This document shows positions 42,836-64,000 of a stretch of 64,000 nucleotides of DNA, piece by piece (position 1 is the first letter of the stretch; each line of letters opens with the position of its first letter). Location: the IMG/VR virus record IMGVR_UViG_3300028394_000053, positions 1-64,000 of that record; one strand, 5' to 3'. The stretch comes from a virus. The position numbers and the translations under genes were made by a program. The notes below the pieces were generated by a model. The model searched no databases and had not been told where the DNA came from. It worked only from the letters and a program-made list of their open reading frames with translations.

Positions 42836-43691
42836 TCTATATTGTATGTTTTGGATTCCAGGGAGTTGCGGCGATATTATTCAACAACTACTAGGAAAAT
42901 CTGGTCAATTTGAAAATCAATACGATGGTGCAATTTTAGATACTGGTCGGGCATTGCAGAGCGTTGATCCACGATTAAAGAACTTATTTCCAAGCAATAT
43001 TGTTACGTGGACCCCAAAGAATACTAACAGATGGTATGGCAGAACATGGAACGACTCTGACATATTAAAATTAAAAGAGTTAGCAGCAGAAAGTAGTCAA
43101 TCGTGGATTATCGGTACGCACAGACTTGATCAATTGTTTTTTTTAAAAAAATCCTTAGATATAGTGTCTATTGGCATTACATATGATCTAGAATTATACC
43201 CAGCTGTGATTAAAAACTGGTGCAGAAAATCAGCTGTTGGATGTACTGTAACTCAGGAAATATATAAAAATTCTAAAATAGCACAAAAATTTCAAGAAAA
43301 GAACTTGTTTGGAGAATTTATGCTTAAAGAAATTCTCAATCATATTACTGATAGACCAAAAAAAATTGACAATAATTTTGACATTAATATTTCATTAGGA
43401 GATATCTATAATAGAAATTTATCATCTATAGATAGGTGGGTTACAGACGCTGGACTAGATATGTTTGACCGATGGTTATTGCTTCAAGATCCGCTGTATA
43501 GATTTAAGTATACCAATCATCAATCCTACATAGATATACTTGGCTACAACACACATGCAACAACTGTACTAGATGCCCCTATCAAACTGTCGACATTAGA
43601 CCAAATTTTGATATCTCATTATTGCAAGGATGCCCCGTCTACCATAAACACAAACATAGATTTTGTAAATTTTTTAAATGGCCAAGGATGA
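42828..43691 (+). CDS. Hypothetical protein with a possible sulfotransferase/P-loop-like N-terminus
   Basis: N-terminal strand-loop-helix MFWIPGSCGDIIQQLL, similar to IAFYPGAGGNRY in 1692-3629. Confidence 0.35.
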   Translation: MSDLYCMFWIPGSCGDIIQQLLGKSGQFENQYDGAILDTGRALQSVDPRLKNLFPSNIVTWTPKNTNRWYGRTWNDSDILKLKELAAESSQSWIIGTHRLDQLFFLKKSLDIVSIGITYDLELYPAVIKNWCRKSAVGCTVTQEIYKNSKIAQKFQEKNLFGEFMLKEILNHITDRPKKIDNNFDINISLGDIYNRNLSSIDRWVTDAGLDMFDRWLLLQDPLYRFKYTNHQSYIDILGYNTHATTVLDAPIKLSTLDQILISHYCKDAPSTINTNIDFVNFLNGQG

Positions 43692-43707
43692 TGATAACTA
43701 CTAGTCC

Positions 43708-44136
43708 ATGGTATGGCTTTACGAAAACAAAACAATCGAACAACTGCCCGAAGACTGTGTGGGGTTTGTATACCTGATCACAAACAACACCACCGGTAGG
43801 AAGTATATCGGTAAGAAACTAGCAAAATTTAGTAAGACAACGTACAGAGTAGTGAAATTAAAAAACGGCAACAAAAAACGTAAAAAAATCAGAAGCAAAA
43901 TAGAATCAGACTGGCAGCTATACTATGGAAGCAACACCGAACTCAACCAAGACATTGAACGCTTAGGCGCAGACAACTTCACAAGAGAAATATTATTTTA
44001 TTGCAACTCAAAAGCCGCTTGCAGTTATATCGAAGCTAGGGAACAATTTAATCATAGAGTACTAGAGTCAGATGACTACTACAATGGACAGATAGTGTGT
44101 CGCATTCACGGTAGTCATATAAAAAACAAAATTTAA
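43708..44136 (+). CDS. Small stand-alone GIY-YIG family nuclease-like protein
   Basis: GFVYLITN..KYIGKK (GIY-YIG variant), basic insert, SDWQLYYGS, candidate catalytic Glu in YIEAREQF, YYN. Confidence 0.75.
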   Translation: MVWLYENKTIEQLPEDCVGFVYLITNNTTGRKYIGKKLAKFSKTTYRVVKLKNGNKKRKKIRSKIESDWQLYYGSNTELNQDIERLGADNFTREILFYCNSKAACSYIEAREQFNHRVLESDDYYNGQIVCRIHGSHIKNKI

Positions 44137-44152
44137 ACTAGACAGGCAACAA

Positions 44153-44521
44153 AACTGACTGTGTTTGATCGAGGTAGCTCGATCCCCGTTGAGGGCTGGT
44201 GCAATACCCAGCTCAGATAGAATGGACTCAGGTTCACTCGGGTGTCAAAGGCAAATGCTAACTTAAGGCAACAAATGGTTTGGGCTCCGTTGAAAAAGAT
44301 ACGACCCATGCTCGTAGGACTTGGATTTATTCTCGGGTCACTAGGGTTCCGTTGATATGTGAAGCGTGAGTAGGGGGTACCGGTCAACCGCCTCCGTGTG
44401 GAAACACAATCTTGCAAGAATAAATGACAGCTACACTCAGATAATGTACCAGTCATGTTCACCGTTCATACGGTGAATTGTGACCGCGTGATCTAGATAA
44501 TGCACTTAAAAACAGTCAATT
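44153..44521 (+). ncRNA. Candidate ~370-nt structured non-coding element of unrecognised family
   Basis: No credible CDS. 5'/3' closing stem TGACTGT/ACAGTCA, several internal hairpins including a GGAA tetraloop, and a 9-bp long-range complement. Confidence 0.55.
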
Positions 44522-44528
44522 AAAAAAA

Positions 44529-44570
44529 TGTTTCTGAGCTTTAGCGAAAGAAACAGATCTCTAAGAGATC
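44529..44570. terminator. Tandem hairpins between convergent transcription units
   Basis: TGTTTCT..GCT-TT-AGC..AGAAACA followed by GATCTC-TAA-GAGATC; the A-run at 44522-44528 gives a U-tail on the minus strand. Confidence 0.5.
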
Positions 44571-44906
44571 TTACAAGTTGGTATCGGGCCAGTCGCGAAA
44601 CAAGGCGTGCTGGATGTCTCCAGCAACAAACTGATTGAAGCTTTTGTGCTTGACTTCAAGATCGCCTTCCAGTGGAGCCACACGTTTAAACGCACGATCC
44701 ATTTGACCCATGTCTGTGAACTCCATGATAATCATCCATTCCGGCATATCTGCTATAGACCTAAACCCCATTTTACATCTAGTGATTCTGTACGTCTCCA
44801 TCTTGCCTTCGGCAATCAAATGATCAAAGAAACTTTTCATTCCGTTTACCCAGTCTAGATCTGAAATGTCACCTTCTTTGTTTGCCCAAATTGTATATAA
44901 ATCCAT
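44571..44906 (-). CDS. Hypothetical protein, possible dimeric alpha-beta barrel (ferredoxin-like) fold
   Basis: 111 aa; YTIWAN..YRITRCKMGFRS..EWMIIMEFTDMGQMDRAF pattern. Confidence 0.45.
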   Translation of the reverse strand: MDLYTIWANKEGDISDLDWVNGMKSFFDHLIAEGKMETYRITRCKMGFRSIADMPEWMIIMEFTDMGQMDRAFKRVAPLEGDLEVKHKSFNQFVAGDIQHALFRDWPDTNL

Positions 44907-44908
44907 AG

Positions 44909-45343
44909 TTACTCCATTGGTCCCAGTAGTTCAAAGCCGTCAAAGCCTTGTTTGTACAGGTGTGCTTGATCTAGATAGAGATAATGAAATCCTCGTTCTC
45001 GATAGATAGCACATTCTGTTTTTAAACTTTCTATGCCCAGTCGGGTCTTGGGATTGTGATAGGTCCAAGCAAACTGCGCACACAAAGCATTGTGGCTGTC
45101 GTAGCGTTTGATCATGCTCCACGCTACCAGCCGTCCTTGATCGCGATAACCGATAAGGTCAGTATCCGGATCAAGATACTGACTATCAAAAATTGGAATT
45201 ACACTGCCAAAATGTTTGTAGATACAGTAGGTCCTGTAGATGTCGTTGAGAACGGCTATGTCGGGATCGGTGATATAGTACCAATCTACTGTGGGCGTGT
45301 AATGGGTTTTTTCCAAATTGATTCTGGCATGTTGATAAGTCAT
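44909..45343 (-). CDS. Arginyl-tRNA-protein transferase C-terminal-like (GNAT-fold) protein
   Basis: DIYRTYC..YRDQGRLVAWS..FAWTYHNPKTRLGIESLKTECAIYRERGFHYLYL..YKQGF parallels the ATE1/Bpt C-terminal pattern (SLG..E..YYYLGY..YK..F). Confidence 0.55.
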   Translation of the reverse strand: MTYQHARINLEKTHYTPTVDWYYITDPDIAVLNDIYRTYCIYKHFGSVIPIFDSQYLDPDTDLIGYRDQGRLVAWSMIKRYDSHNALCAQFAWTYHNPKTRLGIESLKTECAIYRERGFHYLYLDQAHLYKQGFDGFELLGPME

Positions 45344-45843
45344 GGTCTGGGATCTTTTCTGTGTTGGAATAATTCTTTCAGGTATGCGTCTGGCCAGGTA
45401 TTGTAAAATCCTTTGCGACCCATGGCGGCGGCCTTTTGATCTAGGTCCGGCAACGACTGTACTAGAACTAGAGCATAAGTGCCTTGATTCATGACAACTC
45501 CGTTTACTGTTTCTGGCAAAGCAGGATGATCCAACAAGGCTATTAGATTGTAAGGAACCATGTAATGACGATTGGCCAAGTCAACTGCCTGCACAAACTT
45601 TTCAGGATCCACCGTGTTGGCATTGTACACATACACAAGCACTTGCCACGGATCAATACCTTGCCAACTAAGTGGAGCCAAGTCCCAATAGGCATCTTGC
45701 CCCAGTCTGACCTCGTAGGCATTGTCCAGTCTAGCACGTCTAGCATATGGGCACGGACTCCAGCCACCTAGGGCAGGATTTGGAACTTCTAAAAATTCTT
45801 CGATCCAGCAATTGATATCCGTTTTGACTTGTTCTATATCCAT
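45340..45843 (-). CDS. Hypothetical protein, DUF1415/DUF6875-like
   Basis: WIEEFLEVPNPALGGWSPCPYAR and LLDHP motifs. Confidence 0.45.
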   Translation of the reverse strand: MDIEQVKTDINCWIEEFLEVPNPALGGWSPCPYARRARLDNAYEVRLGQDAYWDLAPLSWQGIDPWQVLVYVYNANTVDPEKFVQAVDLANRHYMVPYNLIALLDHPALPETVNGVVMNQGTYALVLVQSLPDLDQKAAAMGRKGFYNTWPDAYLKELFQHRKDPRP

Positions 45844-59312: not shown

Positions 59313-59413
59313 ATAAATACTTGTTCAACGCAATCAGGCGTTTTATGCTGAACGGGCAACCCAACAGCGTAGCAGAATAGAACCTGCATTGGACTTCTTT
59401 AAGGAGAAAACAA
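59313..59413 (+). promoter_or_regulatory. Late promoter box plus a structured ~95-nt 5' leader
   Basis: ATAAATA at 59313-59319, three hairpins, then SD AAGGAG. Confidence 0.55.
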
Positions 59414-60118
59414 ATGGGCCGTCCTTTAAAAATTAAAAAATCAACCACCATAGACATTGGTTTCAATGACTTTGGTAACCTAGAAGTGCCTGTGATTCCA
59501 ACTGGCATGACCACTACAGACTTTATTGGTGTAGTCGGTGGTGCCAACGCCGGTATTGCAACAGCTGCCTATCCAGTAGTGGCCTGTGATGCCAACATCA
59601 ACGGCGTAGGCAACACCGCCGCTTATATCATACGTCAAAAAGGTGCAACCAAATACCTGGTTGGATCTACAGCCGCTACTACTGCTGCAAATATTGTGGC
59701 CGGCAGTAGTTATCGTATTGTCAGTGTAGGAACTACAACATTTACCGCAATTGGTGCACCAGTTACAGCCACAGTGGGCGATATTTTCACAGCCAATCAA
59801 GCTGGTACCGGATCTGGTACTGTAAACCTGGTAGGGCAGTGCTTGTTGGCCAATCAGGCCAATGCGGCATTACTGACAGCCAACACCATGAGTATTACTT
59901 TCAGCTACGATGGCAATCCAGCCAACGTGACACCGGTAGCAAAATTGGAAAACTTGTATGTGTGGAATTACAACAGCTCGAACACAGCCAACACACAGTT
60001 CAGTTCTACATTCTTTGACACCGGTAATACCACGCCCAAGTCCGGAGCCGAAGTTGAAACATTCACCAATGCAACTGGCGATATTGTGCTTGGGTTGATC
60101 ACAAACTACACATCCTAA
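59414..60118 (+). CDS. Putative virion structural protein
   Basis: 234 aa, Thr/Gly/Ala-rich, strong SD and late promoter; located between capsid and fibre genes. Confidence 0.55.
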   Translation: MGRPLKIKKSTTIDIGFNDFGNLEVPVIPTGMTTTDFIGVVGGANAGIATAAYPVVACDANINGVGNTAAYIIRQKGATKYLVGSTAATTAANIVAGSSYRIVSVGTTTFTAIGAPVTATVGDIFTANQAGTGSGTVNLVGQCLLANQANAALLTANTMSITFSYDGNPANVTPVAKLENLYVWNYNSSNTANTQFSSTFFDTGNTTPKSGAEVETFTNATGDIVLGLITNYTS

Positions 60119-60139
60119 TAGTGACATAACTGGCCATAC

Positions 60140-60159
60140 GATCCCGCTACGGCGGGATC
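60140..60159 (+). terminator. Stable hairpin with a C(UACG)G tetraloop; terminator or mRNA 3'-end stabiliser
   Basis: GATCCCGC-TACG-GCGGGATC is a perfect 8-bp stem, but the U-tail is short. Confidence 0.6.
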
Positions 60160-60244
60160 TTGAGAATTTAGAATCACAAGAAAATAGTAGCAGATAACCC
60201 AGATTTGCCAGCGATTGGTAAATACATCATAATAGGAGAATACC

Positions 60245-63200
60245 GTGGCCGTCACAAGAATAAAAAATAACCAGATCACTGATGCATCAGCTGGCAATAC
60301 CCAACTAGGTATCAATGCAAATACTAAAGTACAAGATCATAGCGTAACTTCAATCAAGTTAGCCAACAACATCACTTATGGTTCAGACCTTACCATCACA
60401 GGTAACTTGAGTGTGACTGGTACAACCACCGCGGTTGATACCACATATACCAACATCCAAGATCCCCTAATCGTATTAGCGGATGGACAAACAGCCAATA
60501 CTCCTACTGTGGACATTGGCTATATCGGTCTACGTGGAAATGCAGCATCTGGTAATATTGCTTCGTTCTGGAACGAAGCCAACAGCACATTTACTGTGGC
60601 CTACACCAATTCTGGTGTTATGGACAACACTGTCGTTGCTATCAACAGCTATGCAGACTTTAAGGCCAACAATATCAACACAGTAACCAATGTCAGTGCT
60701 GGTGCAAACGTCAATGTTGGCGGCAATGTAAATGTAACCAATAATGTAAGTGCTGGTGGTAATATTGTTGCCGTTGTTGACATAACCGGCGGAAATATCT
60801 TCACTGCCAACACTGTAAGTGCAGGCGGTAATGTAGAAGGCAATGCTATACTTGCTCGTAACAGTGGCAACATCAGCACAGCAGGCAATGTTTATGGTGC
60901 TAACGTATTGGCAACTGTAGTAAGTGCTAGTAGTAACGTAACTGGTGGCAATATCAACACAGGCGGATCTGTCAGTGCTGGTGGCAATGTGTCTGCAATC
61001 GCAGTAAGTGCCAGTGGCAATGTAACTGCCAACAATGTAACAGTTGGAAACATTGTAAGTGCAATTGGTAACATTGTTACCAGCAATTTCTTTGTAGGTG
61101 ATGGATACTATATCAGCAACATCAACCCAGGTAACATTGGTACTCCGACCAAGATTCAAAACGGCGGAACCTATGCCAACGCAACTGCAGCAAACGCCAA
61201 CCTAACAATCGCTGTTGGGTCAAGCAGTAACCTAGTAGCCACATTCTATGACACTGGTGTCAACATCAACGGCAATGTAAGTTCAAGCGGTAATATTATC
61301 GCTGTTGCCAATGTAGACGGTGCAAATGTAAATGCCACAACAATTTCTGCTACTGCAAATATAACTGGTGGTAACGTCATATTTGGTTCTGGTGATGTAA
61401 CTGGAACTGGCAACGTATTTGCTGGTAATGTATTTTTTGGCGCCGGTGTTGCAAGCGGAACTGGTGATGTATTTGGCGGCAATTTCTACGCTGGAACCGA
61501 TGTAAGTGCCGGCGGCAATGTTGACGCTAACAATGTAAACGTAACAACCAATGTAAGTGTGGGTGCCAATGTAATTGGTGGCAATGTATTAAGCAACGGT
61601 GCGTTATCAGCAACTGGCACTGCCAATGTTGGTAATTTGGTCACCAACGGTTTGATATCAGCCACAGGCAATGCTCAAATTGGCAATATCTTAACAGGCG
61701 GTCAAGTAAGTGCAAGCGGCAACGTAACCGGCAACGTATTGGTTGGTAGCTTTGCCGAAGTAACAAACACAGCCAATGTTGGTAATTTGACCACACAAGG
61801 CTTTATCAGCGCAACAGGCAATGCTCAAATTGGTAACGTTCTAACTGCCGGTCGAGTAAGTGCAACTGGCGATGTGTTTGGTAACAATGTATCAGCTGTG
61901 GCCAATGTCAACGGTGCAAATGTCAATGCTACAAATGTATACGTTACCAAAGTCAGCGCAAGCGGCAATGTTATAGCTGGTAATGTGATCAGTAACTTCT
62001 TATACAGTGACGGCAGTGCGTTAACAATCAGTGCAGTTGGCACTAATAGCGGTATCAGCATCCTAACAAACGGAACTGGTAACATTGGTGTTGGTAGCAC
62101 ATACATCAACAACTTGGCAAATCCAGAACAGCCACAAGATGCGGCAACCAAGCAGTATGTAGATGACGTGGCTCAAGGACTCAACATCCATGACAGTACC
62201 AGTGCTGCTACCGGCAACACCTTGGCAAATATCACCGGCGGTACTATAACATACTACAACGGTCCAGCCAATAACGGTGTTGGTGCTACCCTGACCACAA
62301 CCGGTTCATATACCAACATTGACGGTGTGGCTATTAACGTAGCCAACACACGTATCTTGGTCAGGGCAGAAGCCAATGCAGTGTTCAACGGTATCTATGT
62401 TTATTCCAATGCAACAGCTATTACTCGTGCCGCAGATTACAACCAAGTGCCAGAAGTTGAAGCTGGTGACTTTGTGTTCAACTTGTACGGTAATGTATAT
62501 GGCAATACCAGCTGGGTACAAACCAGCAACGTCAGCAACGTGGGACAAGCTGGAAACAACATTGTGTTCACACAGTTCTCTGGTCAAGGTACATACATAC
62601 AAGGTAACGGTATTGCTATCGTTGCTAACGAAATCAGCACCAGAATCAATACTGGCAACCTAGAGTATGATGGATCTGGTAACCTACAAGTATCAACCAG
62701 TGCTCAATTCACTACTCCAGCTCTTGGATCAGCAACTGGTACAACAATCAGCTTGACTGGCAACGTAACTGCAAGTGCTGTTGGTGCAACAGAACTCAGT
62801 GCAAGTGGCAATGTTTACGGCGGTAATGTAAGTGCAGCAGGCACTATTGTTGCTGTGGCAAACATAGCCGGCGGTAACTTGTTGACTGGCAACGCGATCA
62901 GTGCAACTGCTACAATCACTGGTGGTAATTTGGTTACAGGTGGATTCCTCAGCGTTGCAGGAAATGCGTTTGTTGGTAACTTGAGCATAGTCGGTAACGT
63001 ATTCAGCGATATTAATATGCTGACCAATATCACAACTGGTGGTTATATAACTGCTATTGGTAATGTAAGTGGTGGAAACGTAAATGCTGTAGCCAATATA
63101 TCAGCAACAGGAAATGTAGTTGGCGGCAACATTATATTTGGTTCTGGTGTTGTAAGTGGAACTGGTAATGTCACAGGCGGTAACGTGATATTTGGCTCTG

Positions 63201-64000
63201 GGGTTGTTAGCGGAACTGGCACAATTAGTGGTGGCAATGTAAATGTAACCACAGACGTTAGCGCAGGCGGAAATGTACAAGCCAATGCTGTACTAGTCCT
63301 TAACAGTGGCGCAATCAGCACAGGTGGTAATGTATCGGGTGCCAATGTATTGGCAACTGTAGTAAGTGCCAGTGGTAACGTGACGGCTAACAACGTGACA
63401 GTTGGAAACATTGTGAGTGCTGGTGGTAACATTGTTACCAGTAGCTTCTTTGTAGGCGATGGTTACTATATCAGCAACATCAACCCGGGCAACGTGGCCA
63501 TAACCAAACTGGTCAACGGTGGTAGTTATGCCAATATTACGTCAGCAGATGGCAACTTGGTAATTGCAGTTGGCGCAGCCAGCAACGTGACAACCACATT
63601 TGCCAATAACTTGTTAGCGGCAAACGGCGTAATCAGTGCCAGTGGCAATATTGTCTCTGGTAACTTGACCATAACTCCAACACAAAGTATTGTTGGTGCT
63701 ATAACAAACGGCAACATCAGCGTACACCCAGATGGAACTGGTGCATTTATTGTTCAAACAGGTGGCAATACTGCTATGTTGATTCAAAGCGATGTGCCTA
63801 ATGCAGAATGCTTTGTACAAATCAACACCACTGGTACTGGACTTGGTGCAGTTGGCGGCGGATCATACAATGGTAGTTATATACTAGGCAACAGCACTCC
63901 TTCGCAGATCAACAATCGGTTGGCTTCTTTTGCTGGTAGAGGATCTGAAAATGGCACAACTCTTACAGTCAGTCCTAGCGCACAAATTACTCTCGACGCA
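60245..64000 (+). CDS. Partial long tail-fibre/adhesin-like protein (>1250 aa), truncated by the right window edge
   Basis: Missing from the ORF track because it has no stop. TAAATA and SD AGGAG precede GTG 60245: MAVTRIKNNQITDAS..; many (V/I)SAxGN(V/I)xGGN repeats and a NLANPEQPQDAATKQYVD motif; spot checks stay in frame to ..SPSAQITLDA at 64000. Confidence 0.8.
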   Translation, partial: MAVTRIKNNQITDASAGNTQLGINANTKVQDHSVTSIKLANNITYGSDLTITGNLSVTGTTTAVDTTYTNIQDPLIVLADGQTANTPTVDIGYIGLRGNAASGNIASFWNEANSTFTVAYTNSGVMDNTVVAINSYADFKANNINTVTNVSAGANVNVGGNVNVTNNVSAGGNIVAVVDITGGNIFTANTVSAGGNVEGNAILARNSGNISTAGNVYGANVLATVVSASSNVTGGNINTGGSVSAGGNVSAIAVSASGNVTANNVTVGNIVSAIGNIVTSNFFVGDGYYISNINPGNIGTPTKIQNGGTYANATAANANLTIAVGSSSNLVATFYDTGVNINGNVSSSGNIIAVANVDGANVNATTISATANITGGNVIFGSGDVTGTGNVFAGNVFFGAGVASGTGDVFGGNFYAGTDVSAGGNVDANNVNVTTNVSVGANVIGGNVLSNGALSATGTANVGNLVTNGLISATGNAQIGNILTGGQVSASGNVTGNVLVGSFAEVTNTANVGNLTTQGFISATGNAQIGNVLTAGRVSATGDVFGNNVSAVANVNGANVNATNVYVTKVSASGNVIAGNVISNFLYSDGSALTISAVGTNSGISILTNGTGNIGVGSTYINNLANPEQPQDAATKQYVDDVAQGLNIHDSTSAATGNTLANITGGTITYYNGPANNGVGATLTTTGSYTNIDGVAINVANTRILVRAEANAVFNGIYVYSNATAITRAADYNQVPEVEAGDFVFNLYGNVYGNTSWVQTSNVSNVGQAGNNIVFTQFSGQGTYIQGNGIAIVANEISTRINTGNLEYDGSGNLQVSTSAQFTTPALGSATGTTISLTGNVTASAVGATELSASGNVYGGNVSAAGTIVAVANIAGGNLLTGNAISATATITGGNLVTGGFLSVAGNAFVGNLSIVGNVFSDINMLTNITTGGYITAIGNVSGGNVNAVANISATGNVVGGNIIFGSGVVSGTGNVTGGNVIFGSGVVSGTGTISGGNVNVTTDVSAGGNVQANAVLVLNSGAISTGGNVSGANVLATVVSASGNVTANNVTVGNIVSAGGNIVTSSFFVGDGYYISNINPGNVAITKLVNGGSYANITSADGNLVIAVGAASNVTTTFANNLLAANGVISASGNIVSGNLTITPTQSIVGAITNGNISVHPDGTGAFIVQTGGNTAMLIQSDVPNAECFVQINTTGTGLGAVGGGSYNGSYILGNSTPSQINNRLASFAGRGSENGTTLTVSPSAQITLDA

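What the first reader, a model, noticed from the sequence alone, without database searches (positions are those of the whole stretch)
43708..44521. Minimal GIY-YIG nuclease followed by a large structured non-coding element: candidate RNA-associated nuclease system
Seen: in a window where gaps are otherwise about 110 nt or less, about 430 nt after the nuclease stop are non-coding and base-pairable throughout. Closing stem AACTGACTGTGTTTGA (44153-44168) with TTAAAAACAGTCAATT (44506-44521); hairpins GATCGAG-GTAG-CTCGATC (44167-44184), GGGCTGG/CCAGCTC (44193-44214), GGGGG..CGG-TCAA-CCG-CCTCC (44373-44395), GTGT-GGAA-ACAC (44396-44407) and GTCA..TTCACCGT-TCAT-ACGGTGAA..TGAC (44452-44484, flanked by direct AGATAATG repeats); and a 9-bp long-range pair ATTTATTCT (44325-44333) / AGAATAAAT (44417-44425) consistent with a pseudoknot. 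G-U pairs and a GNRA loop favour RNA on the + strand. The 142-aa protein has no separate DNA-binding domain but has a very basic insert (KLKNGNKKRKKIRSK). I see no tRNA, tmRNA, RNase P or group I/II intron signature. Inference: a co-transcribed RNP in which RNA supplies scaffold or specificity; alternatives are an origin primer RNA or a packaging RNA.
Basis: partly seen in the sequence, partly recalled or inferred. Interest (0 to 1): 0.85.

Follow-up and report, generated by a model that had tools for sequence, protein, structure and literature searches.

The report
Twin-box phage RNA beside nuclease gene
The gene-free stretch behind the small nuclease gene encodes a real, knotted RNA of about 400 bases that hundreds of uncultured lake phages share; it is a new front-end variant of the little-studied Polynucleobacter-1 RNA, nothing shows that it guides the nuclease, and its job is still unknown.

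Summary
The observation largely holds. Window 44137-44570 has no conserved reading frame. About 100 distinct homologous copies show strong compensatory base changes, including the 9-bp pseudoknot.

The window gives no Rfam match. Sister loci behind homologous GIY-YIG genes score 72-119 bits to Rfam RF01718 (Polynucleobacter-1, 2010) in their first domain. A profile built only from those sister RNAs' uncatalogued 3' part hits the window at 44347-44504 (E 4e-17). So this is the same RNA family with a different 5' domain.

The nuclease-RNP reading is not supported:
- Homologous GIY-YIG genes occur in 454 cultured phage records, and all four cultured records examined lack the RNA.
- Cargo genes were inserted between nuclease and RNA at least 11 times.
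- Six loci carry an unrelated PD-(D/E)XK resolvase-like gene in the nuclease slot.
- No guide-like target was found.

The oddest feature is two identical 7-nt boxes (AGATAAT at 44439 and 44495). They change in step, with 10 of 10 independent pairs concordant, and have no complementary partner in cis.

Function is unknown. My leading, inferred reading is an autonomous RNA whose twin boxes serve one reader, possibly its own DNA. Earlier agents of this scan found the same RNA on other genomes.

The parts
43708..44136 (+). 142-aa GIY-YIG nuclease gene (catalytic domain only; phrog_447, often misnamed 'NAD synthetase')
   Evidence: Pfam PF19835 E 9e-34. phrog_447 E 2.5e-38. AF2 pLDDT 87.9, with the I-TevI catalytic domain as best meaningful fold hit. 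Homolog of P-SSM2 PSSM2_218.
44139..44150 (+). Conserved leader word TAGACAGGCAAC just upstream of the first helix; possible 5' leader or start region
   Evidence: Conserved in the alignment. Also present in L109, where the upstream gene is on the other strand. Its role is inferred.
44156..44247 (+). Type-A 5' domain: P1 (44156-59/44244-47) enclosing hairpin P2 (44167-84) and P3/P3a (44185-88/44239-42; 44193-99/44208-14). This domain replaces the Rfam RF01718 domain of sister RNAs.
   Evidence: Covariation. No RF01718 hit at E<=10, whereas sister loci score 72-119 bits.
44248..44315 (+). Conserved joiner (AAAGGCAAA...) and long hairpin P4 (44275-44315)
   Evidence: 100% of cells paired, 3-4 pairs with double changes (helices 5-6).
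44318..44339 (+). Hairpin P5, whose loop 44325-44333 is the 5' strand of the pseudoknot
   Evidence: helix 7, 99% paired.
44340..44365 (+). Invariant joining region ACTAGGGTTCCGTTGA...; its first 16 nt were the search pattern
   Evidence: Invariant in the 27 sequences collected independently of the pattern. An exact 16-mer was found in 120 or more viral contigs.
44366..44415 (+). P6 (44366-70/44411-15) enclosing P7 (44373-95, conserved GGUACCGG..AACCGCC hairpin) and P8 (44396-44407)
   Evidence: Covariation at 44367/44414, 44373/44395 and 44399-400/44405-06. Shared with type-B RNAs.
44417..44425 (+). 3' strand of the pseudoknot (pairs with 44325-33)
   Evidence: 96% paired, 3 pairs with double changes (helix 8).
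44439..44445 (+). Twin box 1 (AGATAAT, context ACTC-)
   Evidence: Identical to box 2 in 96 of 98 loci when the boxes are located by context alone. At least 15 changes, and 10 of 10 independent pairs are concordant.
44452..44484 (+). Hairpin P9 between the boxes (GTCA/TGAC plus TTCACCGT/ACGGTGAA)
   Evidence: helices 13-14. Type B has a different hairpin at the same place.
44495..44501 (+). Twin box 2 (AGATAAT, context ATCT-)
   Evidence: As for box 1. Box 2 is the only column set with about 1 bit of mutual information to box 1, across an alignment running from 120 nt upstream of the GIY-YIG start to about 44,740.
44530..44554 (+). Tail hairpin with covarying stem and conserved loop (GAGC...AGCGAA); preceded by an A-run
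   Evidence: Stem covariation. The same tail is present in type B and in the published bacterial-type sequences.
44555..44571 (.). Second hairpin, which overlaps the stop codon of the convergent gene and is terminator-like on the minus strand
   Evidence: minus-strand terminator-like site. Covariation.
44571..44906 (-). Convergent neighbour gene (DUF6614), first gene of the opposite operon
   Evidence: Pfam PF20319 E 4e-21. Present downstream in 55 of 86 loci.

Best explanation
Window 44139/44156 to about 44554 is the gene of a structured non-coding RNA of about 400 nt on the + strand. It belongs to the 'twin-box' RNA family of uncultured freshwater T4-like jumbo phages.

Shown:
- The fold has nine helices plus a loop-to-downstream pseudoknot.
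- The 3' part (window 44347-44504 by profile match) is homologous to the uncatalogued 3' part of Polynucleobacter-1 RNAs. By eye the likeness starts at the AAAGGCAAA joiner (about 44248). The first domain (44156-44247) is a replacement that Rfam's model does not recognise.
- The RNA lies at the end of the gp47-gp46-(cargo)-small nuclease gene row, facing a convergent operon.
- Two identical single-stranded 7-nt boxes flank hairpin P9 and change together.

Inferred:
- The RNA is a gene in its own right. It is read through from the nuclease gene and, at least in some genomes, transcribed from its own start.
- The GIY-YIG protein is a neighbour by gene order. The slot appears to hold a recombination or resolvase-type nuclease. 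The protein is not the RNA's partner.

Mechanism I commit to (inferred, about 30%): the RNA acts through its twin boxes, which one and the same reader must recognise. No complementary word co-varies anywhere in cis or is found in a complete genome. The simplest reader is therefore the template DNA strand of its own gene. Box 1 of the RNA would re-pair with the DNA at box 2, as the upstream G-run of ColE1 RNA II does. That would anchor an R-loop next to an A-rich tract, which could prime or mark DNA replication or recombination.
For: RNA gene:
- No conserved ORF.
- 91% of cells paired versus 35-44% in slid controls, 31 compensatory pairs, 0 of 500 shuffles.
- Fixed G-U pairs on the + strand.
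- Mutual-information helices on 99 distinct sequences.

Family:
- RF01718 hits of 72-119 bits in sister loci behind homologous GIY-YIG genes.
- A type-B-only core HMM hits window 44347-44504 at E 4e-17, the only hit in 64 kb.
- Weinberg 2010 already placed Polynucleobacter-1 downstream of PSSM2_218-like genes and drew a 'tail' with a pseudoknot. PSSM2_218 is a homolog of the window protein.

Autonomy:
- GIY-YIG homologs occur in 454 cultured phage records. The three loci inspected have no long gap behind the gene, and no match to the RNA model appears in four whole records.
- Cargo was inserted at least 11 times.
- The nuclease was swapped for PF24608 PDDEXK_15. Its cultured homologs are annotated as Holliday-junction resolvase or T5 D14-like.
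- L109 and L232 have an opposite-strand gene upstream.
- Gene order is shared: gp46 upstream in 67 of 70 loci.

Twin boxes:
- 99% identity at two A/G columns.
- 96 of 98 loci have identical boxes, and 10 of 10 independent pairs are concordant, p 0.002.
- The same rule holds in the published Polynucleobacter sequence, with the word AGCGAAA.
- No cis partner across an alignment from 120 nt upstream of the GIY-YIG start to about 44,740.
- No excess of complements nearby.
- No second match of the 19-mers in a complete 347-kb genome.

Expression (weak): contigs of four lake RNA libraries lie on 43939-44388, and three bridge the stop codon.
Against: - No experiment exists. The ends of the RNA are unknown.
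- The RNA-library contigs are short and of low depth, and DNA carry-over is possible.
- The adjacency to a small nuclease gene survives a swap between two unrelated nuclease families. That could mean a functional tie rather than mere gene order.
- For the R-loop step there is no direct evidence. Cumulative GC skew of a complete genome shows no extremum at the locus.
- The locus is a convergent junction, which is unusual for an origin.
- Known T4 origins need no ornate RNA.
- The fold is far more elaborate than pairing of two boxes requires.
- A trans partner of only 7-8 nt cannot be excluded by my searches.
Confidence: 0.55

Rival explanations
1. Trans-acting RNA (regulator, sponge, scaffold or anti-defence decoy). 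The ornate core positions two identical single-stranded boxes that bind two copies of one partner, either an RNA word or a dimeric protein encoded elsewhere in the phage or host.
For: - The conserved unpaired regions and the pseudoknot are typical of RNAs that bind partners.
- The boxes have no cis partner.
- Box spacing varies from 47 to 62 nt, so no fixed DNA helical phase is kept.
- The 5' domain is modular, type A or type B.
Against: - A partner with U opposite the A/G positions would tolerate unequal boxes, yet 96 of 98 loci have identical boxes.
- A protein reader would have to change specificity at least 15 times.
- No GIY-YIG residue tracks the boxes cleanly.
- No complement was found near the locus or, for the longer words, in a complete genome.
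Confidence: 0.25
2. One reading: nuclease and RNA form a ribonucleoprotein in which the RNA scaffolds or aims the nuclease. A variant is that the RNA is a cofactor or inhibitor of whichever structure-specific nuclease sits upstream.
For: - Linkage is tight. About 96 of 102 type-A loci and 56 of 59 type-B loci have the GIY-YIG gene upstream on the same strand.
- The remaining loci have another small nuclease there.
- Only about 20 nt separate stop codon and RNA, with no terminator.
- RNA-library contigs bridge the junction.
- The protein lacks a DNA-binding domain and has a long basic beta-hairpin.
Against: - The same protein family works without the RNA in cultured phages.
- The basic hairpin is present in those phages too.
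- Cargo insertions are frequent.
- The RNA stands behind opposite-strand genes in L109 and L232.
- No guide-like target exists.
- No protein column co-varies cleanly with the boxes.
- All loci come from one phage group with shared gene order, so the linkage is not independent evidence.
Confidence: 0.08
3. The nuclease genes are selfish free-standing homing endonucleases (Seg-like) that have settled next to a highly conserved RNA gene, which holds or adjoins their cleavage site. The adjacency reflects homing, not function.
For: - The Pfam family is named after T4 SegE, and there are weaker PHROG homing-endonuclease hits.
- Two unrelated nucleases alternate in one slot.
- Many contigs break right behind the gene.
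- Invariant RNA stretches would make good targets.
Against: - The gene is near-universal rather than sporadic.
- There is no DNA-binding domain.
- The family is a widespread small gene of T4-like cyanophages (T4-GC 213 in P-SSM2).
- The PD-(D/E)XK alternative looks like a resolvase.
Confidence: 0.1
4. The RNA is a ribozyme, for example one that cuts itself out of the nuclease transcript, or a diverged group I-like element.
For: - There are invariant unpaired nucleotides around a pseudoknot.
- The position behind a GIY-YIG gene recalls intron-encoded endonucleases.
Against: - No Rfam ribozyme or intron model matches even at E<=10.
- There are no flanking exons, since the downstream genes are on the other strand.
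- Only a small part of the core is invariant between types A and B.
Confidence: 0.05

Closest known systems
Polynucleobacter-1 RNA motif (Rfam RF01718; Weinberg et al. 2010, Genome Biol 11:R31, PMC2864571)
   Same: - It sits in the same genomic place, downstream of PSSM2_218-like GIY-YIG genes in freshwater phage-like DNA.
- It has the same 3' core: a P5-like hairpin whose loop forms the pseudoknot, the GGUACCGG..AACCGCC hairpin, the twin boxes around a hairpin, and the tail hairpin.
- A profile of that core built from RF01718-bearing RNAs finds the window at E 4e-17.
   Different: - The window's first domain (44156-44247) is unrelated to the 141-nt Rfam model, with no hit at E<=10.
- Rfam catalogues only that first domain. 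The shared core and the twin-box rule are not in Rfam.
- No function is known for either form.
ColE1 RNA II
   Same: It is a several-hundred-nt folded RNA whose upstream segment must match a downstream stretch of its own DNA, so that the RNA stays hybridised and primes replication. That would explain two direct repeats that must stay identical.
   Different: - No origin activity, RNase H site or antisense RNA I equivalent is shown here.
- There is no sequence or fold similarity.
- The context is a phage, at a convergent gene junction.
Large ornate phage-associated RNAs of unknown function (GOLLD, ROOL; Rfam)
   Same: These are big, highly conserved, pseudoknotted RNAs of phages and environmental DNA whose function is unknown.
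   Different: There is no Rfam match to them. This RNA is smaller, and no evidence of multimer formation was sought or found here.
OMEGA / CRISPR-type RNA-guided nucleases (IscB, TnpB omega RNA)
   Same: A nuclease gene lies next to a structured RNA on the same strand.
   Different: - There is no variable guide with targets.
- The nuclease families (GIY-YIG, PD-(D/E)XK) are unrelated to RuvC or HNH effectors.
- The nuclease family occurs widely without the RNA.

Membership tests
Rfam RF01718 Polynucleobacter-1 RNA | Score at or above the gathering threshold (37 bits) against the 141-nt covariance model | tested here: not met
   There is no hit in window 43600-44700 even at E<=10, and none in 16 type-A loci. 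Sister loci score 72-119 bits.
Rfam RF01718 Polynucleobacter-1 RNA | Lies downstream of a GOS11034 / PSSM2_218-like gene (Weinberg 2010, Additional file 1) | tested here: met
   The window RNA follows a GIY-YIG gene that is homologous to PSSM2_218 (tblastn 37% identity, E 2e-13).
Extended Polynucleobacter-1 / twin-box RNA (3' 'tail' with pseudoknot, not in Rfam) | Homology to the region 3' of the RF01718 match | tested here: met
   nhmmer with an HMM of 49 type-B-only cores hits window 44347-44504, E 4e-17, as the single hit.
Extended Polynucleobacter-1 / twin-box RNA | Two identical 7-nt boxes in ACUC- / AUCU- context around a hairpin | tested here: met
   AGATAAT lies at 44439 and at 44495. 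The rule holds in 96 of 98 type-A loci, in type B, and in the published Polynucleobacter sequence.
RNA-guided nuclease system (OMEGA/CRISPR-like) | A variable guide segment with matching targets | tested here: not met
   There is no excess of complements in the 95.8-kb record or near 120 loci. The N7+box 19-mers have no second match in a complete genome.
RNA-guided nuclease system (OMEGA/CRISPR-like) | Nuclease and RNA always occur together | tested here: not met
   Cultured homologs lack the RNA. Cargo insertions and a nuclease swap occur.
Free-standing GIY-YIG homing endonuclease (Seg type) | GIY-YIG catalytic domain | tested here: met
   PF19835 at 116.7 bits. The fold resembles the I-TevI catalytic domain.
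Free-standing GIY-YIG homing endonuclease (Seg type) | A separate DNA-binding domain behind the catalytic domain | tested here: not met
   The protein is 142 aa and the domain covers residues 3-129. The model shows only the core plus a beta-hairpin.
Free-standing GIY-YIG homing endonuclease (Seg type) | Sporadic presence among close relatives; cuts genomes that lack it | tested here: inconclusive
   The gene is present in about 95% of RNA loci. The alternation with PDDEXK_15 is compatible with homing. Cleavage cannot be tested with these tools.
Group I intron with intron-encoded endonuclease | Match to the group I core and flanking exons of one gene | tested here: not met
   There is no Rfam intron hit at E<=10. 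The downstream genes are on the opposite strand.
ColE1 RNA II-like origin primer | An upstream RNA segment identical to a downstream stretch of its own gene | tested here: met
   The twin boxes are kept identical through at least 15 changes.
ColE1 RNA II-like origin primer | Persistent RNA-DNA hybrid and start of DNA synthesis at the site | not testable with these tools
   GC skew of complete genome G001 shows no extremum at the locus, but skew there follows gene direction and is uninformative.

The most novel reading that the evidence does not exclude
The twin-box RNA is a self-recognising replication or recombination RNA. Its box 1 re-pairs with the template DNA at box 2 and locks an R-loop. 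The neighbouring structure-specific nuclease (GIY-YIG, or the interchangeable PD-(D/E)XK resolvase-like enzyme) and gp46/47 then process that R-loop to start DNA synthesis. This would be an ornate-RNA-dependent origin in giant T4-like phages, and possibly in small bacterial islands.
Probability: 0.15. Interest if true: 0.85.

Novelty: new variant of a known kind. Interest (0 to 1): 0.5.

Why it matters
Large, highly conserved, knotted RNAs of unknown function are rare, and they have often led to new biochemistry. This one is abundant in lake jumbo phages. It has been only one-third catalogued since 2010, and only one paper in the searchable library mentions it.

It also shows an unusual evolutionary rule. 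Two short direct repeats must stay identical while their sequence drifts, which points to a specific but still unknown reader.

The window adds three things:
- a second, uncatalogued 5' domain, showing that the RNA is modular;
- the swap between two unrelated nuclease genes upstream;
- a set of negative results that narrow down what the twin boxes can pair with.

It also corrects the tempting reading of an 'RNA-guided GIY-YIG nuclease'.

Tried and rejected
- Rfam at gathering and at E<=10 on the window gave nothing for the element. ARAGORN found no tRNA or tmRNA.
- Single-sequence folding energy is not significant on either strand.
- blastn of type-A and type-B RNAs against 50,697 phage records and against plasmids gave no match.
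- The genome contigs pattern scan gave three chance hits in GC-rich coding DNA. The only real hits were two contigs of a Haliscomenobacter MAG that look like phage DNA.
- Box complement searches were negative in the 95.8-kb record, within several kb of 120 loci, and in the complete genome G001. There is no third copy of the box upstream.
- Mutual information between box states and GIY-YIG residues exceeds shuffles, but it is spread over the most variable columns. That looks like shared descent.
- A reverse-transcriptase template-jump idea was dropped: no RVT_1 in G000 or in two complete genomes.
- CsrA-like GGA sites were rejected because half of the boxes lack GGA. An anticodon-loop complement does not fit the loop rules (by inspection).
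- The N7 segments before the boxes co-occur as a few haplotypes but are not consistently complementary.
- GC skew of G001 is uninformative.
- RNA-library contigs gave no cover on 43400-43700 or on 44420-44760. That is no evidence of absence.
- Complex prediction was not used, because it takes no RNA chain.
Full report
**What is there**

The window is part of a 95.9-kb IMG/VR virus record. CheckV rates it 28% complete, which implies a genome of roughly 340 kb.

ORF 43708-44136(+) encodes a 142-aa protein.
- It matches Pfam SegE_GIY-YIG over residues 3-129 (E 9e-34) and phrog_447.
- An AlphaFold model built on 23 homologs has pLDDT 87.9. Its best meaningful PDB match is the I-TevI catalytic domain (Foldseek probability 0.97).
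- The 'basic insert' forms a long beta-hairpin (residues 40-66).

Behind the stop codon, 44137-44570 has no frame that stays open in relatives. The window gives no Rfam match for this stretch, even at E<=10. It holds no tRNA or tmRNA.

**Is it more than chance?**

The single sequence alone does not show it: the folding z-score is only -1.5. Comparison with relatives does.
- A search with the protein fetched 80 viral contigs, and about 30 carried a homologous element at 75-91% identity.
- A 16-nt invariant word of the element fetched 120 more contigs, independently of the protein.
- The alignments show textbook compensatory changes.
- I wrote down a structure of 77 pairs in 14 helices. On 27 sequences, 91.1% of cells pair, against 35-44% when the partners are slid by 1-3 columns. 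There are 31 pairs with changes on both sides, against 3-11 for the slid controls. None of 500 shuffles reaches the observed values.
- Several G-U pairs are fixed on the + strand and would be A-C mismatches on the other strand. The transcript is therefore + strand RNA.
The 5' strand region pairs instead with 44244-47 (P1), closing a three-way junction.

**What family is it?**

A note from earlier agents of this scan named Polynucleobacter-1 (RF01718) as the closest known RNA, and I tested that claim.
- The window and 16 type-A loci do not match the model.
- Many GIY-YIG loci that lacked a blastn hit to my element carry a 'sister' RNA. Its first 130-145 nt score 72-119 bits to RF01718, against a threshold of 37.
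- The rest of that sister RNA resembles the window's RNA: the same P5-type hairpin whose loop pairs downstream, the same GGUACCGG..AACCGCC hairpin, the same boxed hairpin and the same tail.
- An HMM built only from 49 sister cores (the region 3' of the Rfam match) finds the window at 44347-44504 with E 4e-17. It is the only hit in 64 kb.

So the window RNA is the same family with another first domain (44156-44247).

The 2010 supplement already stated that most Polynucleobacter-1 RNAs lie downstream of GOS11034 genes 'with possible homology to PSSM2_218', and its alignment file carries 'tail' and 'tailpknot' annotations. PSSM2_218 is indeed a homolog of the window protein. No other paper in the searchable library mentions the motif.

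**Is the RNA tied to the nuclease?**

The linkage is strong.
- Of 106 type-A loci with complete RNA flanks, 101 could be classed by their upstream gene, and 96 of those have the GIY-YIG gene upstream on the same strand.
- 56 of 59 type-B loci with a recognisable 3' module do too.

Four observations argue against a functional pair.
1. The protein family is in 454 cultured phage records (T4-like cyanophages, Melnitz, phiM12-like phages and others, at 39-49% identity). In Melnitz, phiN3, S-SRM01 and P-SSM2 there is no long gap behind the gene. A covariance model of the shared 3' module finds nothing in those four whole genomes. The basic hairpin is present there too.
2. In 17 of 101 loci, one or two unrelated genes (1-2 kb) sit between nuclease and RNA. 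On the RNA tree this state changed at least 11 times.
3. Six type-A loci and one type-B locus lack the GIY-YIG gene and have a 168-aa PF24608 PDDEXK_15 endonuclease gene in the slot. In L109 an opposite-strand gene, and in L163 one further gene, lies between it and the RNA. That protein is absent from all GIY-YIG loci and from the 95.8-kb record. Its cultured homologs are annotated as Holliday-junction resolvase or T5 D14-like.
4. In L109 and L232 the gene just upstream of the RNA is on the other strand, so the RNA needs its own start there.

All loci share one gene order: gp47, gp46, cargo, small nuclease, RNA, then a convergent baseplate-side operon. The linkage is therefore not independent evidence. 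I read the slot as that of a recombination-type, structure-specific nuclease filled by either of two unrelated enzymes. This is an inference.

**Expression**

Contigs from four lake metatranscriptome studies lie on 43939-44388, and three of them bridge the stop codon into the RNA. This is compatible with read-through transcription. It is weak evidence: the contigs are short, depth is 2-6, and DNA carry-over is possible.

**The twin boxes**

The 7-mer AGATAAT stands at 44439 (after ACTC) and again at 44495 (after ATCT), on either side of hairpin P9.
- Across 121 distinct 3' modules of both types, the two A/G columns are 99% identical between the boxes, with both states near 50%.
- When the boxes are located by context only, 96 of 98 type-A loci have identical 7-mers.
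- On a tree built with the boxes masked, the first position changed at least 15 times. All 10 phylogenetically independent pairs changed the same way in both boxes (sign test p about 0.002).
- Ten different words occur, and the spacing varies from 47 to 62 nt.
- The published Polynucleobacter sequence obeys the same rule with the word AGCGAAA.

I then looked for the partner.
- No column within an alignment running from 120 nt upstream of the GIY-YIG start to about 44,740 carries more than 0.5 bit of information about a box column, except the other box, which carries about 1 bit.
- Complements are not enriched near 120 loci or in the 95.8-kb record.
- 19-mers covering each box and its flank have no second match, even with 3 mismatches, in a complete 346,856-bp genome.
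- No protein column tracks the boxes cleanly.
- No reverse transcriptase is encoded in two complete genomes.

**How it most likely works**

Shown: a folded + strand RNA with a modular 5' domain, a conserved pseudoknotted core, two identical unpaired boxes and a conserved tail hairpin.

Inferred:
- It is an autonomous RNA gene, and the nuclease is a neighbour by gene order.
- For the mechanism I favour, at about 30%, the idea that box 1 of the RNA re-pairs with the template DNA at box 2. Earlier agents also raised this idea. Any mutation of box 2 changes its own template, so box 1 would have to follow. That explains direct-repeat covariation without a third element and fits all my negative searches.
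- An A-rich tract and DNA-hairpin-like tail follow box 2, and replication and recombination genes lie upstream.
- Against it: there is no direct evidence, GC skew is uninformative, the locus is a convergent junction, and the fold is far more complex than this needs.

**Verdict**

The element is real and interesting, but it is not an RNA-guided nuclease and not categorically new. It is a new 5'-domain variant of an RNA family partly catalogued in 2010. Earlier agents of this scan found the same RNA on other genomes. New here, as far as the notes I saw go, are:
- the homology test with a type-B-only profile;
- the GIY-YIG / PD-(D/E)XK swap;
- the count of cargo insertions;
- the tree-based test of box concordance;
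- the whole-genome negative for extended targets.

Noticed in passing
window 59326-59416 (+): Rfam freshwater-2 RNA (RF02980) at 63.7 bits, above the gathering score of 49.9. This is a second catalogued orphan RNA motif in the same phage window.
   Followed up: no
L116:5046-5549(-), L132, L175, L147:2296-2805(-), L109:9425-9925(-), L163, L291: Here a 168-aa PF24608 PDDEXK_15 endonuclease gene occupies the slot that the GIY-YIG gene holds elsewhere upstream of the RNA. Homologs in cultured jumbo phages are annotated as Holliday-junction resolvase or T5 D14-like.
   Followed up: partly
L201 and L202 (two contigs, 148 kb and 183 kb, of a Haliscomenobacter MAG): Both contigs carry the GIY-YIG gene plus a type-A RNA. 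They are probably phage contigs binned with the MAG, which gives a weak hint that Saprospiraceae may be hosts.
   Followed up: partly
window 44571-45843 (-): The convergent three-gene module (DUF6614, a 144-aa and a 167-aa protein) is present downstream of the RNA in 55 of 86 related loci. The gp51-like and gp26-like genes behind it are present in about 80 of 86.
   Followed up: partly
GenBank phage records, e.g. P-SSM2 PSSM2_218, phiN3 gp310, ACG-2014d: The small GIY-YIG family (phrog_447) is widely annotated as 'NAD synthetase', which looks like a propagated misannotation.
   Followed up: partly
window 44536-44548 (tail hairpin loop); Polynucleobacter NC_009379.1 sequence in Weinberg's alignment: The tail hairpin loop holds the conserved word AGCGAA(A). 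In the bacterial-type RNAs that same word is also the twin-box word, so it occurs three times there. This is unexplained.
   Followed up: no
window 44426-44438 and 44481-44494; same places in alignment A2: The 7-nt segments just before each box occur as a few fixed pairs of haplotypes, for example TGTGCT with CAATTAA. These pairs are shared between type-A and type-B RNAs. Some type-B pairs are 4-nt complementary and most are not. This suggests exchange of 3' modules between types, or a further constraint.
   Followed up: partly
window 60119-60529, 61483-61824, 63433-64000: These are further stretches of 340-570 nt without an ORF of 70 aa or more. They were not examined.
   Followed up: no
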